DNA of 64,000 bases, taken from a virus. A program made the position numbers and the translations under genes. A model generated the notes under the pieces. It had not been told where the DNA came from. It saw nothing but the letters and a program-made list of their open reading frames with translations, and made no database searches. Below are positions 58,573-64,000 of the stretch, piece after piece; position 1 is the first letter of the stretch, and every line of letters begins with the position of its first letter. The stretch lies in IMG/VR virus record IMGVR_UViG_3300040801_003053, positions 6,977 to 70,976 of that record; one strand, 5' to 3'.

Positions 58573-59364
58573 CTACATGAATGATCCGGGGCTTGGAATA
58601 TTGCCTGCCCCCTCTGTCAGGTCATTGCCTCCTCCCAATGGATTCGTAGGCGCTTCCTCTTTGGGTGCCTGCGGAGCCTCTTCAGTTTCCTCTGGCTTCA
58701 AGTAAGGTTTTCCTCCAGCTTCAAGAAACGCTCTACCCTCTTTGGAATCGAGAATTTGCTCTCTAAGTCCTTTTCGATCAGGATTCGGTGATGGTTTAAA
58801 TTCACCGAATAAAGGGCTTTTAAAGCACTCTCCTGCATCGTCAATAGCAAAACCGTACACGTCGTTCTTTGGAACTGCCTGATCCCATGGAACACCTTTG
58901 TACATGGCATTGTTTTGAAGTTCGGGAGTAACCATGATTGCACTGTTGACATTTTCCCAAACTCCGTTACCATCAGATTTCTGAGTATGGCCTACCTGAA
59001 CAATAAACTTCTTGCCTAGGAATTGTCCAATGTCAAAAGTTGAATACTCACTTTTGTTGAGTTTCCTTCCAATAGCTCCGGTGATGAATTTGTGCAACAA
59101 ACTGTTATCGCTGATAATGTTGTTGTACTTAGCCCATAACCATGCTGGCTTTTCTTCTTCACCGTCGTTATACTGGTGCAATTCAAATGGCAATTCAAAA
59201 ACAAATTTGAGTTGAGGTTTCCAACCTTCTCCATAAGCGTTTTTGACATATTGGCTTCCCATATCAATGATACGGACGAGGATGGCTACATGAGGCCCTG
59301 CTGAAATTACGGGTCGACTTACTGAGGTTCCTCCTCTGGCTTTCATACTAAATGATTGTGACAT
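58573..59364 (-). CDS. Single-stranded DNA-binding protein-like (phage OB fold)
   Basis: AGPH-x-A...IIDMG-x-Q...FELP...FDI-x2-FLGK pattern; acidic/Pro-rich tail; own terminator. Confidence 0.55.
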   Translation of the reverse strand: MSQSFSMKARGGTSVSRPVISAGPHVAILVRIIDMGSQYVKNAYGEGWKPQLKFVFELPFELHQYNDGEEEKPAWLWAKYNNIISDNSLLHKFITGAIGRKLNKSEYSTFDIGQFLGKKFIVQVGHTQKSDGNGVWENVNSAIMVTPELQNNAMYKGVPWDQAVPKNDVYGFAIDDAGECFKSPLFGEFKPSPNPDRKGLREQILDSKEGRAFLEAGGKPYLKPEETEEAPQAPKEEAPTNPLGGGNDLTEGAGNIPSPGSFM

Positions 59365-60134: not shown

Positions 60135-61484
60135 CTAAATTACATAAGAGTAAGGATCGATCGAAAGTGAAATAGGATTTACTTTAAGTGTCGTTCCACC
60201 AACGCCAATGTCACGACCTTTGCCCAAATTGAACTCGACTTTCCACATATCATTAGGCGGTACGCTTGCGTTCGCGCTCTTGAGCGTATAATACGCTTCT
60301 CTGTATGGGAAGAGTACAATGTCTGCATCTTCTTCGATGGAACTACTTTCTTTGAGATCCGATAATCGAGGTCTTTTATTGTCACGCTCTTCAACTTTAC
60401 GACTCAATTGCGACAATGCCATAACAGGTATATTGTTGTCCTTGGCAATGCTTTTCAACTCACGGGTAATATATGTGATCCCCTGCCTTAAATCGTGTCC
60501 AGGATAACTACACCTCTGGATATAATCTACGACGATTAAATCACAAAGCCCTTCCTTCCTCAGCTCTTTCGTTTTGAGAGAAATGTCATCAATATGTTTC
60601 AAATCACCAATAATCGTGAATGAGCTTTGGTCCATTTGTTCAGAAAACTTTGTAACCTTAGCCAATTCTTCTGCCGTTAACTTACCGGATTTAATTTTGT
60701 TGTAATTAACTCCAGTTTCCTTGGCTATGATTTTACTGCGTAATTGAAAGACGGGCATCTCTAAAGAGAAAAAGACAACGGCATGACCTCGCTTGTGGCA
60801 TTCCCATGCCGTAATTAAAGCCACCGTTGTTTTAAGCATACCTGGTCGGCCTGCAACAATAATAAGCTCACCGAATTGCATACCTCCTTGTAGAAGTTGA
60901 TCAAATTCGAGAGATCCTGTTGGCAATGCAGTATGTTCTCCGGACAGATGCTTTTTATAACGATCCGTAATTTGAGCAACATAGTCTTTTTCAGAATTGT
61001 TTTGAATGTCTTTTGTAAATCGATCAATGAGTTTTTTATACCCCCTCAGAATATTATCTGACACGGTAAAAACATCCATTCCTTTCCAATCAATAGCTTG
61101 GATTTTGGAACTTACATCTACCCAATGTCTGATAATAACAAACTCTTTAAACTTCAAGATATGATGCTCCAAATGTGCTGTTGTAGCAACAAATTGAGTC
61201 AGATCTACAAGCTTAAATTGCCATTGGCCTGCCAGCCAATCAGGCAATGCCTGGGGTTTAAATTCATTCACCGAAACAATATCAACCTTGACTCCTGCTT
61301 CATAGCATTTGAGAATACTGGTAAATACAAAACGGTGAAACATATCGGAAAAGTCTTTGGCTTCTATGTTGTGACGAAGGACGAGAGCTTTAACCTCGTC
61401 CCTGTCATCAACAAGAAGTGATCCAATGATTGACTTCTCCAGATTATGCATAAACTCATGATCATAATCTGCGATATAATTCAT
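60135..61484 (-). CDS. dnaB: Replicative DNA helicase (DnaB family)
   Basis: N-terminal DnaB domain, FSLEMP, IVVDYIQ, ALSQLSR, SDLKESSSIEEDAD, KGR finger; variant P-loop GRPGMLKT. Confidence 0.9.
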   Translation of the reverse strand: MNYIADYDHEFMHNLEKSIIGSLLVDDRDEVKALVLRHNIEAKDFSDMFHRFVFTSILKCYEAGVKVDIVSVNEFKPQALPDWLAGQWQFKLVDLTQFVATTAHLEHHILKFKEFVIIRHWVDVSSKIQAIDWKGMDVFTVSDNILRGYKKLIDRFTKDIQNNSEKDYVAQITDRYKKHLSGEHTALPTGSLEFDQLLQGGMQFGELIIVAGRPGMLKTTVALITAWECHKRGHAVVFFSLEMPVFQLRSKIIAKETGVNYNKIKSGKLTAEELAKVTKFSEQMDQSSFTIIGDLKHIDDISLKTKELRKEGLCDLIVVDYIQRCSYPGHDLRQGITYITRELKSIAKDNNIPVMALSQLSRKVEERDNKRPRLSDLKESSSIEEDADIVLFPYREAYYTLKSANASVPPNDMWKVEFNLGKGRDIGVGGTTLKVNPISLSIDPYSYVI

Positions 61485-61500: not shown

Positions 61501-61707
61501 TTATCCTTTTGTGCCCACTTTACTATTAAAAGAATAAATAGCTTTATCGTCTGCAATCTCTGGGCCTGTGATTGTCGCGTTGACCAATTCAGGATATTCC
61601 TCTGAATAAAAGTCAGCTACTTGCTTGGGTGATAACTCAGTATTCGGATCCGTCAATTCTTTGTTTCGGAATTTGAATACTCGGGTATGCATAATTACGT
61701 TTGACAT
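61501..61707 (-). CDS. Ubiquitin-like protein, PRTRC system protein C type
   Basis: L-x-DPN-x-ELSP-x-QV-x-DFYS-x2-YPEL-x-NA-x-I-x-GPE...VGTKG with terminal Gly. Confidence 0.85.
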   Translation of the reverse strand: MSNVIMHTRVFKFRNKELTDPNTELSPKQVADFYSEEYPELVNATITGPEIADDKAIYSFNSKVGTKG

Positions 61708-61717
61708 AAATTAGTTT

Positions 61718-62788
61718 TTAAGAGTTAAACATGTCGATTTGATCCTCGTCAGGATCGCTGAAAGCGTTTTTAGCTGCGCTTGCCCAGTCTTGAGGATCCG
61801 GAGCGGGAATACCCTCTAACGGGTTTTCTTTCTTCTCTGTTTCCACTTCTGGACTTGTAGGTAAATTATAAGGAAAAGCATCTTCTTCTGGTTTTTCAGG
61901 TTCTTTCTTGCTTGGGCATCCCGGGAGTTGACAGAAATCAGCATTGTGCCACTTCAAATCTTTGTCACACATTTTACAGCGATTTTCTGATTCAGGCAAA
62001 TCTACAGCTTTTGGTTTTTCCGGGTCAGTAATGTCTGTAACCTTTATATCAGTTACTTCAGAGACTGGTGACTTGTCACAATTATCGTCAATATTTGTGA
62101 CAGATTCCATTTCCTTGACAATCTCATCATTGTTCTCCAATGACTTTTTGATCTTGTCAGCTGGTGACCCACTATGCGGTTGCTCAACGGATGCCATTTG
62201 TATGGTTTTATCTGTTGCATGATGCTCTTGGAAAGAATCTTTTATCTGCTCTTGCTGTTCAGGACTTATTGGCCCCGGTGTTCCTACAATCAAATTCTCT
62301 TTAGGAATCCCTGATTTTCCAATGATGCTTTCTTTGAGCTTCTCCGTAGAACTCTTAGGAGCCTCTGGAGCCTCTTTTACAGGCTCAGGCTTCTTTTCTT
62401 CCTTTTTTGGAGTATTACTACCTTGGGCGAAGAGATCGTTCTTTGGAGCTTCTTTTTTCTTTACAGGTTTTTTCTTGGCCTGTTTACCTTTCTCATTGCC
62501 TTTCTCTTTTTTCTCTTGCTCAATTTTCTCGAGTTGTTTGTTGATGAATTCAATTTGATTGATTCGATTCTTTTGACTTTTGTATGTAGAATCAAGAATC
62601 TGTTCGAGGTCTTGAGAGCAAGCCTGCAAGGAAGTGTTAATTACCGAAAAAGGAATCAGGCTCCCTGCCTTATCGTCATCCGGATTGATGGACTTCATGA
62701 TCACATCAATACGAAACTTCTCATTTTCCTTTTTGATCCTTAAAGAAACAACGGCAATGGATAAATAATTTTCAATGGATTTTAACAT
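61718..62788 (-). CDS. PRTRC system protein E-like
   Basis: N-terminal domain (...SLIPFSV...SQDL), long Pro/Glu/Lys-rich linker, Cys4 cluster, terminal QIDMF; directly upstream of Ubl as in PRTRC loci. Confidence 0.65.
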   Translation of the reverse strand: MLKSIENYLSIAVVSLRIKKENEKFRIDVIMKSINPDDDKAGSLIPFSVINTSLQACSQDLEQILDSTYKSQKNRINQIEFINKQLEKIEQEKKEKGNEKGKQAKKKPVKKKEAPKNDLFAQGSNTPKKEEKKPEPVKEAPEAPKSSTEKLKESIIGKSGIPKENLIVGTPGPISPEQQEQIKDSFQEHHATDKTIQMASVEQPHSGSPADKIKKSLENNDEIVKEMESVTNIDDNCDKSPVSEVTDIKVTDITDPEKPKAVDLPESENRCKMCDKDLKWHNADFCQLPGCPSKKEPEKPEEDAFPYNLPTSPEVETEKKENPLEGIPAPDPQDWASAAKNAFSDPDEDQIDMFNS

Positions 62789-62824: not shown

Positions 62825-63085
62825 TTATTCTTGGTCATCTACAATGTCATGACTGATAAGTTCGTTTTTCTGATCATTATATATTTTCAGAAAATCTTGC
62901 ATTTTGTACGAATGCGTTGCTAATTTTTCAGCAAGCAAGTATGTGTACTGGTTATCAGCATCGTCAAATACTTCTTTACACATATTGAACATCCTGATAG
63001 CCATTTCATGTCGGATACAGGCTATGCGATCTTGGAATACTTCTCCATCTGATGCCTTATAGGCTTCAATTACTTCTATTTGCAT
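62825..63085 (-). CDS. Hypothetical protein within the Ubl cassette (86 aa)
   Basis: ORF between the E1 and protein E genes. Confidence 0.6.
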   Translation of the reverse strand: MQIEVIEAYKASDGEVFQDRIACIRHEMAIRMFNMCKEVFDDADNQYTYLLAEKLATHSYKMQDFLKIYNDQKNELISHDIVDDQE

Positions 63086-63086
63086 T

Positions 63087-63767
63087 TTATCGGGTTTTAA
63101 AATTCATTGTTTTTAAGTCAAACCATATTTCCTTGTGAGGTGTTTGACCCTTGATCATGAGTTGTGAGATCATATGAATAACAAGTGATGCCACAATGCG
63201 GTTTACACTAAAAGATTGCTCTTGCAGGCTCTCATAAGCCGAGCAAGAGACTTTCTGATTATCGACAAGGGTAGGGAATTTCTCTATTATCGTCAGTTCT
63301 TCTTGCCCTTTTAAAGCCATACATACTTGACCATAATCTTCTCCATTCCCTGTATCAATCCAATGATTGAAAATACCTTTCCGAAAATCATTGTTTAAGA
63401 CTTTTCTGGTATCAACATTATCAACACATGAGATTAAAAAGTCTGAGGCCGGTCTTTGGTCCACATACATTTCTGCATTGGCTTCAATCTGCGTACCAAA
63501 AGCGTATCCAATACGTTCTGCAAGCACATCAACTTTATAACGACCAATATCGCTTTCCACATAACCTTCTTGCTTGCCGACATTATGAGGCATAATCGTA
63601 TCGTTGTCGTAAACAGATATGTTGAATCCTTTATTGTCAAGCTGAATCCATGATTGCTCAAGCTGTACCAGATCTCGTAAAACTATTGATCCGGTAGCTC
63701 CGGCTCCAATGACTATAAACTTAACGCGGTGACGGTTATCAATTAATCGCTGATTCAGGTATATCAT
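63087..63767 (-). CDS. E1-like ThiF/MoeB enzyme, PRTRC type
   Basis: GAGATG nucleotide-binding loop, D-x-D...N-x-GKQ, K78, CVDN, WID-x-GN...GQV, S-C175-S...EQS-x2-VN. Confidence 0.85.
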   Translation of the reverse strand: MIYLNQRLIDNRHRVKFIVIGAGATGSIVLRDLVQLEQSWIQLDNKGFNISVYDNDTIMPHNVGKQEGYVESDIGRYKVDVLAERIGYAFGTQIEANAEMYVDQRPASDFLISCVDNVDTRKVLNNDFRKGIFNHWIDTGNGEDYGQVCMALKGQEELTIIEKFPTLVDNQKVSCSAYESLQEQSFSVNRIVASLVIHMISQLMIKGQTPHKEIWFDLKTMNFKTR

Positions 63768-64000
63768 TTATCAAAGAATTTAATGAGGTTGAACTTTTAT
63801 ATAATTTTTTGGGAATGGAAAGACCTTTCTTAATGCTTTCTTGTAAAATAAATTCAGGGCTTTTTTTACCATTCAAGCATTCCGTATTCATAAAAGCATT
63901 CCAATCAGAATTGAAAACAGCTTTTTCCGCATTAACCATAAGTTTTTGATAATCGGCATTGAAATAATCACTTGGTTTCATGTTGCCCCAACACATTTTG
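63739..64000 (-). CDS. E2-like protein, PRTRC system protein B type (5'-truncated by the window edge)
   Basis: Open frame to the window end; KMCWGN resembles the E2 family D active-site Cys; followed by E-x-A-x-F-x-S-x-W; overlaps the E1 start. Confidence 0.6.
   Translation of the reverse strand, partial: KMCWGNMKPSDYFNADYQKLMVNAEKAVFNSDWNAFMNTECLNGKKSPEFILQESIKKGLSIPKKLYKSSTSLNSLINDIPESAIN

What the first reader, a model, noticed from the sequence alone, without database searches (positions are those of the whole stretch)
61727..61741. Beta-clamp-binding-like motif QIDMF at the C-terminus of protein E
Protein E ends ...DEDQIDMFNS, after a long disordered linker that also contains KNDLF and a C-x2-C-x11-C-x4-C cluster (seen). 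QL[S/D]LF-type pentapeptides at flexible termini bind the bacterial sliding clamp (established). Protein E could be the adaptor (E3-like) that brings the Ubl machinery to replication forks, giving a concrete functional hypothesis for PRTRC systems (inference).
Basis: partly seen in the sequence, partly recalled or inferred. Interest (0 to 1): 0.65.

Follow-up and report, generated by a model that had tools for sequence, protein, structure and literature searches.

The report
Clamp-docking peptide on phage PRTRC protein E
A phage protein next to a ubiquitin-like tagging cassette ends in a peptide that fits the rule for docking onto the bacterial DNA sliding clamp. Its relatives on plasmids keep a similar tail tip and often sit beside a clamp gene, so this never-tested cassette probably acts at replicating DNA.

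Summary
Protein E (window 61718-62788, minus strand, 356 aa) ends in DEDQIDMFNS, and QIDMF is encoded at 61727-61741. KNDLF (aa 116-120) and C-x2-C-x11-C-x4-C (C271 to C291) are also present, and the tail after residue 103 is predicted disordered.

QIDMF meets every sequence rule of a canonical clamp-binding motif, Q-aliphatic-x-[L/M]-[F/L] with acidic flanks. About 0.04 such C-terminal matches are expected by chance in this phage proteome.

Protein E has no close homologue in 1.8 billion representative proteins. Weak HMM hits, gene order, predicted fold and language-model neighbours still place it as a divergent PRTRC protein E.

In 119 family members, 99 end in [ILV]-D-[ILVMA]-[LFMYW] or in L-D-L-P-I. 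Most of these have G or A where a clamp motif has Q. 97 also carry an internal DPRQ[MT]x[LI] peptide.

A dnaN gene lies within about 7 kb of the ThiF gene in 6 of 12 sampled cassettes. Only 0.7% of plasmids carry dnaN at all.

The phage has no recognisable polymerase, primase or clamp of its own.

The clamp link is therefore plausible (about 0.45). The E3-like adaptor role remains inference. Earlier notes of this scan reported the same link on other DNA. I found no paper describing it.

The parts
61718..62788 (-). Protein E gene (356 aa), a divergent PRTRC system protein E
   Evidence: ORF and translation. TIGR03741 matches aa 1-107 at 20.2 bits, and at 22.9 bits in the genome search, both below the 37.95 cut-off. 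hhalign against the family gives E=0.0019. Nearest ESM Atlas clusters by features and by structure are PRTRC_E. No homologue other than itself.
62480..62788 (-). N-terminal folded domain (aa 1-103): short helix, three strands, one long helix
   Evidence: AF2 pLDDT 82-96. A canonical Xanthomonas E model has the same order of elements, with one extra short helix between strands 2 and 3. Both models have the same top solved-structure neighbour, 7u65_G T7 Gp1.2 (Z 8.8, rmsd 1.9, 71 aligned; and Z 6.4, rmsd 3.1, 74 aligned), followed by HPF/RaiA and dsRBD folds. These Z values are in the range of common arrangements.
62429..62443 (-). Internal KNDLF (aa 116-120) in the lysine-rich disordered linker; possible second docking peptide
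   Evidence: Sequence. It matches the family tip pattern x-x-D-L-F but lacks Q. Its function is inferred only.
61994..62008 (-). AVDLP (aa 261-265), a third tip-like peptide in the tail
   Evidence: Sequence. It resembles the GLDLPI and AVDLF tips of proteobacterial E proteins. It may be chance, because four-residue patterns of this type occur at the expected rate in the proteome.
61916..61978 (-). C271-x2-C274-x11-C286-x4-C291 cluster, probably a single small zinc knuckle or ribbon
   Evidence: Sequence. AF2 pLDDT about 60-65. Only insignificant Pfam hits: PLATZ E=0.015 and double zinc ribbon E=0.027. The 122 other E proteins are shorter (mostly 160-230 aa) and were not examined for an equivalent cluster.
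61727..61741 (-). QIDMF (aa 350-354), the candidate clamp-binding motif, flanked by DPDED and NS-stop
   Evidence: Sequence. Fits Q-aliphatic-x-[L/M]-[F/L] (PMC11139829). pLDDT is below 50 at 340-344, 348-351 and 354-356 and averages 47-49 over 341-356. 0.044 such matches expected by chance per proteome.
61501..61707 (-). PRTRC protein C, a ubiquitin-like protein (68 aa, ends GTKG), starting 10 nt after the protein E stop
   Evidence: TIGR03738 at 71.7 bits (cut-off 45.95) and Pfam Prok_Ub at 83.8 bits. The E gene sits directly upstream of C in all nine other PRTRC loci read.
63087..63767 (-). PRTRC-type ThiF / E1-like adenylyltransferase (226 aa)
   Evidence: TIGR03736 at 136 bits (cut-off 144.75) and Pfam ThiF at 57.1 bits.
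63739..64000 (-). 3' part of the E2-like gene (PRTRC B / Prok-E2_D, 234 aa); the gene runs past the window end
   Evidence: Full ORF at L002:4716-5420. Pfam Prok-E2_D at 48.7 bits. TIGR03737 at 36.9 bits, below its cut-off.
62825..63085 (-). 86-aa ORF between ThiF and E, unknown
   Evidence: No significant family match in NCBIfam, Pfam or PHROGs.
60135..61484 (-). DnaB-family replicative helicase, starting 16 nt after the Ubl gene
   Evidence: TIGR00665 at 258 bits and Pfam DnaB_C at 210.8 bits. It puts the cassette inside the replication operon.

Best explanation
Protein E is a divergent phage member of the PRTRC protein E family. It has a small folded N-terminal domain and one long helix. 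Behind these lies about 250 residues of lysine-, glutamate- and proline-rich disordered tail carrying short docking peptides.

The terminal QIDMF is the phage's version of the hydrophobic C-terminal tip that almost every family member keeps. In this phage the tip has the full canonical form of a beta-sliding-clamp-binding motif.

The most likely mechanism is as follows. The tail docks into the hydrophobic pocket of the host DnaN ring, tethering protein E to DNA that is being replicated. Through protein E, the co-transcribed ubiquitin-like protein C and its E1 and E2 enzymes would be held there too. This phage brings its own DnaB helicase and initiator but no polymerase, primase or clamp.

Shown here: the motif, its disordered context, the family-wide tip, and the gene linkage to dnaN in other elements. 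Inferred: binding to DnaN. More weakly inferred (about 0.25): that E acts as an E3-like adaptor directing Ubl conjugation to the clamp or to clamp-bound proteins.
For: 1. Motif. QIDMF meets every sequence rule of Q-aliphatic-x-[L/M]-[F/L], has the mildly preferred Asp at position 3 and an acidic flank (PMC11139829). It differs from the E. coli Pol III alpha internal motif QADMF only at position 2, where an aliphatic residue binds better than Ala.

2. Context. The motif lies in a low-confidence tail. About 0.044 such C-terminal matches are expected per proteome.

3. Family tip. 99 of 119 E proteins end in [ILV]D[ILVMA][LFMYW] or LDLPI. These are the penta- and hexapeptide shapes known for clamp motifs. 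In a non-redundant set of 36, the last residue is hydrophobic in 92%, against 9% in the rest of the tail.

4. Q-bearing peptides elsewhere in the family. 97 of 119 carry an internal DPRQ[MT]x[LI], for example QMSLV and QTSLL. Other lineages end in QTMDLF or QTLNLF or carry QISMSDF.

5. Linkage to dnaN. A dnaN gene lies within about 7 kb of the ThiF gene in 6 of 12 ThiF-sampled cassettes from different lineages:
- Vibrio
- Pseudomonas
- Aeromonas, where dnaN is directly upstream of E
- Chroococcidiopsis
- a faecal phage with the order JAB-ThiF-DnaN
- Bacillus
A seventh case is the P. syringae megaplasmid, whose DnaN is only 40% identical to the P. aeruginosa plasmid DnaN but keeps the same synteny. 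Only 491 of 72,556 plasmids carry dnaN at all.

6. Phage dependence on the host. No DnaN, PolA, PolB, Pol III alpha or DnaG was found in a record estimated 95% complete. The E-C pair is followed 16 nt later by dnaB.
Against: - No orthologue exists, so conservation of QIDMF itself cannot be tested.
- Most family tips have G or A at position 1, and replacing Q by G or A greatly lowers affinity of the consensus peptide.
- Tips differ strongly between lineages: FANLAERF, DFQLF, PASLW, NDIDLED. That is odd for a peptide aimed at the conserved host clamp pocket. It would fit a fast-evolving partner better.
- In 33 of 36 family members the tip is at the extreme C-terminus. That is also typical of SSB-type tails, which need the free carboxylate.
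- Six of 12 sampled cassettes, and this phage, have no dnaN nearby. Many plasmid dnaN genes have no PRTRC nearby.
- dnaN and PRTRC may simply share the replication or maintenance backbone of large plasmids.
- No binding data and no complex model are available.
Confidence: 0.45

Rival explanations
1. The tail tip is a docking peptide for another replication or recombination protein, not the clamp. Acidic disordered tails ending in an aromatic residue are how SSB (tip DDDIPF) and the phage T7 gp2.5 and gp4 proteins hold their partners. That comparison is from my own knowledge and was not checked in a paper here. On this reading protein E would imitate or compete with such a tail.
For: The family tip sits at the extreme C-terminus in 33 of 36 non-redundant members. 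It is preceded by acidic residues and ends in F in half of them. The Ralstonia tip D-L-P-I has the same shape as D-I-P-F. An ssb gene lies 3.4 kb from the ThiF gene in the Xanthomonas plasmid. In Burkholderiales the internal Q-bearing peptide could be the clamp motif, which would leave the tip for a second partner.
Against: In this phage the motif is followed by N-S, so F354 has no free carboxylate. It has the Q and lacks the proline. ssb was seen near only 1 of 12 cassettes, against 6 of 12 for dnaN.
Confidence: 0.2
2. The tip is an intra-system handle. It binds another protein of the cassette or of the element (E1, E2, the alpha-helical protein F, the PRTRC ParB, or an element-encoded clamp paralogue) and co-evolves with it. 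The resemblance to a host clamp motif in this phage would then be convergent or incidental.
For: Tips are lineage-specific: GVDLL or GLDLPI in Burkholderiales, FANLAERF in Pseudomonas, DFQLF in Xanthomonas and Stenotrophomonas. The E gene is always directly upstream of the Ubl gene. The three gammaproteobacterial lineages whose element encodes its own dnaN (Vibrio, Pseudomonas, Aeromonas) have the least standard tips.
Against: The phage cassette lacks ParB, and the PRTRC F model found no match; the PRTRC A search was uninformative, since its controls did not respond. Yet the phage keeps a tip. The phage tip is the most canonical host-type clamp motif of all those seen.
Confidence: 0.2
3. QIDMF is a chance match in a fast-evolving, low-complexity tail and has no docking function in this phage.
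For: There is only one sequence, with no orthologues to show purifying selection. Looser four-residue patterns occur at the expected rate in the proteome.
Against: The expectation is 0.044 per proteome for the pentapeptide at a C-terminus. The match falls in exactly the protein family whose members almost all keep a hydrophobic tip at the end of an otherwise hydrophobic-poor tail: 92% against 9%.
Confidence: 0.1

Closest known systems
Canonical beta-clamp-binding motifs (Dalrymple 2001 consensus QL[S/D]LF; Q-aliphatic-x-[L/M][F/L] in the review PMC11139829), e.g. Pol III alpha QADMF, Pol V QLNLF, Pol IV QLVLGL
   Same: Q, an aliphatic residue, Asp, Met and Phe are in the right order. The motif sits in a disordered terminal tail with acidic flanks. 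The family shows both five-residue (GVDLF) and six-residue (GLDLPI) shapes.
   Different: The carrier is not a polymerase or repair enzyme. It is a small scaffold protein of a ubiquitin-like cassette. Binding is untested. Most relatives lack the Q.
PRTRC system protein E (TIGR03741 / PF19556) of the ParB-related, ThiF-related cassette, which is operon type 6d of Iyer, Burroughs and Aravind 2006 (PMC1779556)
   Same: It occupies the position directly upstream of the Prok_Ub gene and lies next to E1-like and E2-like genes. It shares the N-domain fold, the long helix, the disordered tail and the hydrophobic tip.
   Different: It scores below both curated cut-offs. It is twice as long (356 aa against about 160-200). 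It has a cysteine cluster, and two residues follow the tip. The phage cassette lacks ParB, and the PRTRC F model found no match; the PRTRC A search was uninformative. The cassette sits inside a phage replication operon. The 2006 paper does not list protein E or dnaN among the operon's components.
SSB C-terminal tip (DDDIPF) and acidic C-terminal tails of phage T7 gp2.5 and gp4 (from my own knowledge)
   Same: A folded N-domain, then a disordered linker, then an acidic stretch ending in a hydrophobic or aromatic residue that recruits partners.
   Different: The phage motif is not at the extreme end, has Q and no proline, and the N-domain is not an OB fold.
Eukaryotic PCNA ubiquitination and SUMOylation (Rad6-Rad18 and PIP-box proteins), as a functional analogy only
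   Same: A ubiquitin-type conjugation machinery would be brought to a sliding clamp by a short clamp-docking peptide.
   Different: There is no homology of the adaptor, no evidence that the clamp is the target, and the bacterial clamp is DnaN, not PCNA.

Membership tests
Beta-clamp-binding motif (CBM) | Gln at position 1 | tested here: met
   Q350; rule from PMC11139829.
Beta-clamp-binding motif (CBM) | Aliphatic residue at position 2 | tested here: met
   I351. Leu is the optimum; other aliphatic residues are tolerated.
Beta-clamp-binding motif (CBM) | Leu or Met at position 4 and Phe or Leu at position 5 | tested here: met
   M353 and F354, as in Pol III alpha QADMF.
Beta-clamp-binding motif (CBM) | Lies in a disordered or terminal segment with negatively charged flanks | tested here: met
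   pLDDT is below 50 at 340-344, 348-351 and 354-356, with block means of 47-49 over 341-356. The preceding residues are D-P-D-E-D.
Beta-clamp-binding motif (CBM) | Conserved in orthologues | tested here: inconclusive
   No orthologue exists. The wider family keeps a hydrophobic tip (99 of 119), but mostly with G or A instead of Q.
Beta-clamp-binding motif (CBM) | Binds the hydrophobic pocket between domains II and III of DnaN | not testable with these tools
   No complex prediction or binding assay is available here. The only indirect evidence is dnaN gene linkage.
PRTRC system protein E (TIGR03741 / PF19556) | Scores above the curated HMM cut-off | tested here: not met
   20.2 and 22.9 bits against a cut-off of 37.95. 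No Pfam hit at E<=0.01. hhalign E=0.0019, probability 14.5%.
PRTRC system protein E (TIGR03741 / PF19556) | Gene directly upstream of the Prok_Ub gene (protein C), in a cassette with E1-like ThiF and E2-like B | tested here: met
   The E stop lies 10 nt before the C start. ThiF and B lie upstream. The same E-C order is found in all nine other PRTRC loci read.
PRTRC system protein E (TIGR03741 / PF19556) | N-terminal alpha-beta-beta-beta-long-alpha domain followed by a disordered tail | tested here: met
   AF2 models of the phage E and of a canonical E have the same order of elements, apart from one extra short helix in the canonical model, and the same top structural neighbours. Atlas structure search gives TM 0.72 and 0.65 to PRTRC_E clusters.
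PRTRC cassette as a whole (TIGR03734-03742) | ParB-family protein, protein A and protein F present | tested here: not met
   No ParB_N, PRTRC_A or PRTRC_F match in the 95%-complete record. The PRTRC_A control gave no signal anywhere, so that one search is uninformative. A RadC-type JAB and an ArdC gene lie upstream instead.

The most novel reading that the evidence does not exclude
PRTRC-type cassettes are a bacterial and phage counterpart of clamp-centred ubiquitin signalling. On this reading protein E docks on the DnaN ring through its tail peptides. It thereby directs the E1/E2-driven attachment of the ubiquitin-like protein C to the clamp or to clamp-bound replisome proteins. That would let a phage or plasmid commandeer, protect or switch the host replisome.
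Probability: 0.15. Interest if true: 0.85.

Novelty: new variant of a known kind. Interest (0 to 1): 0.58.

Why it matters
PRTRC, which corresponds to operon type 6d of Iyer et al. 2006, is widespread on plasmids, integrative elements and phages. In the literature I could search it has never been given a function or a target.

A clamp-docking peptide on its scaffold protein, together with recurrent dnaN linkage, names a concrete place of action: the replication fork. It also gives a cheap test, namely peptide binding with a five-residue mutant as control.

This phage offers the cleanest canonical motif seen here, and the phage must rely on the host polymerase and clamp. If the link holds, it would add a new class of sliding-clamp client. 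It would also suggest that ubiquitin-like tagging at the clamp is not confined to eukaryotes.

Tried and rejected
Searches for relatives of protein E:
- The word-indexed search, full HMMER over 1.8 billion representatives, tblastn against phages and the IMG/VR scan found only the protein itself.
- The phage ThiF and Ubl proteins found no close loci in viral contigs or genome contigs.
- Alignments of Ubl or ThiF proteins were too diverse for the locus finder.
- 'Relatives' cannot be drawn for a virus record. I therefore could not collect Bacteroidota PRTRC E proteins, which would be the closest useful comparison.

Fold search: hits to T7 Gp1.2, HPF/RaiA and dsRBD have Z values of 6-9. That is within the range of common arrangements, so no function is drawn from them.

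Cysteine cluster: no significant family, so I rejected calling it a RING or an E3 module.

PHROGs: nothing for E or its small neighbours.

Reverse sampling from plasmid dnaN genes:
- P. syringae has PRTRC nearby.
- Rhodanobacter, Vibrio alginolyticus, Citrobacter and Providencia do not.
- The Pasteurella 'plasmid' hit is a chromosomal dnaA-dnaN-recF region.
The linkage is therefore real but not exclusive.

I considered E as a substrate of E1 adenylation and rejected it. The Ubl ends in Gly, whereas E ends in Ser.

Full report
**What is there.** The window is bases 6977-70976 of a 75.5-kb IMG/VR virus record estimated 95% complete. On the minus strand, the ORF 61718-62788 encodes a 356-aa protein ending ...SDPDEDQIDMFNS. 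KNDLF (aa 116-120) and the cluster C271-x2-C274-x11-C286-x4-C291 are also real.

The gene sits in a tight operon. The order is E2-like (Prok-E2_D / PRTRC B), ThiF (PRTRC type, 136 bits), an 86-aa ORF, protein E, and 10 nt later the 68-aa Prok_Ub protein C ending GTKG. DnaB follows 16 nt after that, then HU, an NGO0469-family initiator-like protein and a 5'-3' exonuclease. A RadC-type JAB protein and an ArdC protein lie upstream, beyond the window.

**Is it protein E?** At sequence level the protein is an orphan. It is the only hit in the word-indexed search and in a full HMMER pass over 1.8 billion representatives. The link to PRTRC E rests on four lines of evidence:
- A sub-threshold TIGR03741 match over residues 1-107, at 20-23 bits against a cut-off of 37.95, and a weak hhalign score of E=0.0019.
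- The invariant position directly upstream of the Ubl gene, seen in all nine other PRTRC loci I read.
- Structure. AlphaFold2 gives a confident helix, three strands and a long helix for residues 1-103, then a mostly disordered tail. A canonical Xanthomonas E gives the same order, with one extra short helix between strands 2 and 3. Both models pick the same top solved neighbours: T7 Gp1.2, then HPF/RaiA and dsRBD folds, at Z 6-9, which may be only a common arrangement.
- The ESM Atlas puts residues 1-110 nearest to PRTRC_E clusters, both by features (0.83-0.86) and by structure (TM 0.72 and 0.65).

I treat it as a divergent family member that fails the curated cut-off. The phage cassette is also reduced. 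ParB_N and PRTRC_F found no match. The PRTRC_A search also found nothing, but its controls did not respond, so it is uninformative.

**Is the motif more than chance?** A 2024 review defines natural clamp-binding motifs as Q-aliphatic-x-[L/M]-[F/L], or the six-residue form. It notes a mild preference for Asp at position 3 and mostly acidic flanks, and gives Pol III alpha QADMF as an example (PMC11139829). QIDMF, with DPDED in front, meets each rule. With this phage's amino-acid composition, a match within five residues of a C-terminus is expected 5e-4 times per protein, or 0.044 times in its 84 crude ORFs. Protein E is the only one found.

**Conservation.** The exact motif cannot be traced, because there are no orthologues. 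The family can be examined, though. I collected 122 PRTRC E proteins plus nine from plasmid records.

Of the 119 proteins of at least 140 aa:
- 99 end in [ILV]-D-[ILVMA]-[LFMYW] or in L-D-L-P-I (for example DDGVDLL, GAVDIF, DTGLDLPI).
- 97 carry an internal, strictly placed DPRQ[MT]x[LI] peptide (QMSLV, QTSLL, QTSIPGI).
- 71 carry an AT-hook-like KRGPGRPPK or KGKPGRK.

This sample is dominated by Burkholderiales. In a non-redundant set of 36 that includes seven other plasmid lineages, the last residue is hydrophobic in 92%, against 9% in the preceding tail.

A C-terminal docking tip is therefore a family hallmark, and the phage's QIDMF is its counterpart. Three points count against a uniform clamp motif:
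- Most tips have G or A where Q should be, and that substitution greatly weakens the consensus peptide.
- Other lineages end quite differently: FANLAERF, DFQLF, PASLW, NDIDLED.
- The near-universal extreme C-terminal position recalls SSB-type tails.

**Gene linkage to the clamp.** While reading loci found with the phage ThiF, I repeatedly met dnaN. It lies 3-6 kb from ThiF in a Vibrio plasmid, a Pseudomonas megaplasmid, a cyanobacterial plasmid and a Bacillus plasmid. In an Aeromonas plasmid it is directly upstream of E, inside the cassette. In an uncultured faecal phage it is directly downstream of JAB-ThiF.

That makes 6 of 12 ThiF-sampled loci, all from different lineages. The P. syringae megaplasmid adds another case: its DnaN is only 40% identical to the P. 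aeruginosa plasmid DnaN, yet the synteny is kept. Only 491 of 72,556 plasmids carry any dnaN.

The linkage is not exclusive. Six sampled cassettes and this phage lack dnaN. Four of five true plasmid dnaN loci sampled the other way had no PRTRC nearby. Shared residence in a plasmid's replication backbone is a possible confounder.

**Phage context.** No DnaN, family A or B polymerase, Pol III alpha or DnaG was detectable in the record. The phage must therefore borrow the host polymerase and clamp. In that setting, a clamp-docking protein encoded two genes upstream of its own DnaB makes functional sense.

**Reading.** The most likely explanation (0.45) is that the tail of protein E docks on the host sliding clamp. 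This would place E, and through it the Ubl/E1/E2 cassette, at replicating DNA. The further step, that E is an E3-like adaptor aiming the Ubl at the clamp or its clients, is inference (about 0.25 within that reading). The cysteine cluster matches no RING or zinc-finger family.

The rivals are:
- A tail for another replisome partner, SSB-like (0.2).
- A handle for a cassette protein that co-evolves with it (0.2).
- Chance (0.1).

[quoted passage not shown] They propose no target and mention neither E nor dnaN. Searches for PRTRC, for ThiF/JAB/ParB with sliding clamp, and for clamp-binding motif with ubiquitin-like found no paper making the link. Earlier AI notes of this scan report the same clamp link on other DNA. 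I reached the dnaN linkage independently before reading them. They are not independent evidence. They gave me the pointer to the 2006 paper.

Noticed in passing
L006:7-2761 (MT835919.1, uncultured faecal phage): A JAB protein (305 aa), a ThiF protein (265 aa) and a 360-aa DnaN homologue (all three beta-clamp domains hit, weakly) are encoded back to back with overlapping ends. A DUF6094 methyltransferase follows.
   Followed up: partly
L011:2296-4350 (Aeromonas hydrophila plasmid pK522-MOX): dnaN sits inside the PRTRC cassette, between the IS-disrupted ParB gene and the E-like and C-like genes. The E-like protein ends QALFDQDILSSLGI.
   Followed up: partly
P0002-P0116 (Burkholderiales PRTRC E proteins): Besides the C-terminal tip, these proteins have a strictly conserved internal DPRQ[MT]x[LI] peptide. 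In Ralstonia the tip is itself preceded by DPR[DN], which looks like a duplicated docking module. Many also carry an AT-hook-like KRGPGRPPK.
   Followed up: partly
window 58573-59364 (-): The NGO0469-family 'replication initiation' protein (263 aa) also has a folded N-domain followed by a proline- and glutamate-rich tail, ending ...IPSPGSFM. This may be another tail-tip docking protein in the same operon.
   Followed up: no
L002:6799-8117 (G000 72798-74116, beyond the window end): ArdC (N-terminal domain plus zincin peptidase) and a RadC-type JAB protein lie upstream of the cassette on the same strand. This pairing is typical of conjugative-element leading regions, yet here it is in a phage.
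   Followed up: no
whole record G000: No DNA polymerase (A, B or C family), DnaG primase or clamp was detectable, although DnaB, HU, an initiator-like protein and a 5'-3' exonuclease are present.
   Followed up: partly
L005:5007-5396 and L008:3854-4252: The Ubl (protein C) of Ralstonia phage Dina and of the Xanthomonas plasmid continues for about 60 residues past the conserved K-G end. It would need cleavage before activation. The phage protein here ends at the Gly and is ready made.
   Followed up: no
window 62825-63085 (-): An 86-aa ORF is wedged between ThiF and E with no match in NCBIfam, Pfam or PHROGs. The canonical cassettes read here have no equivalent at this position.
   Followed up: no
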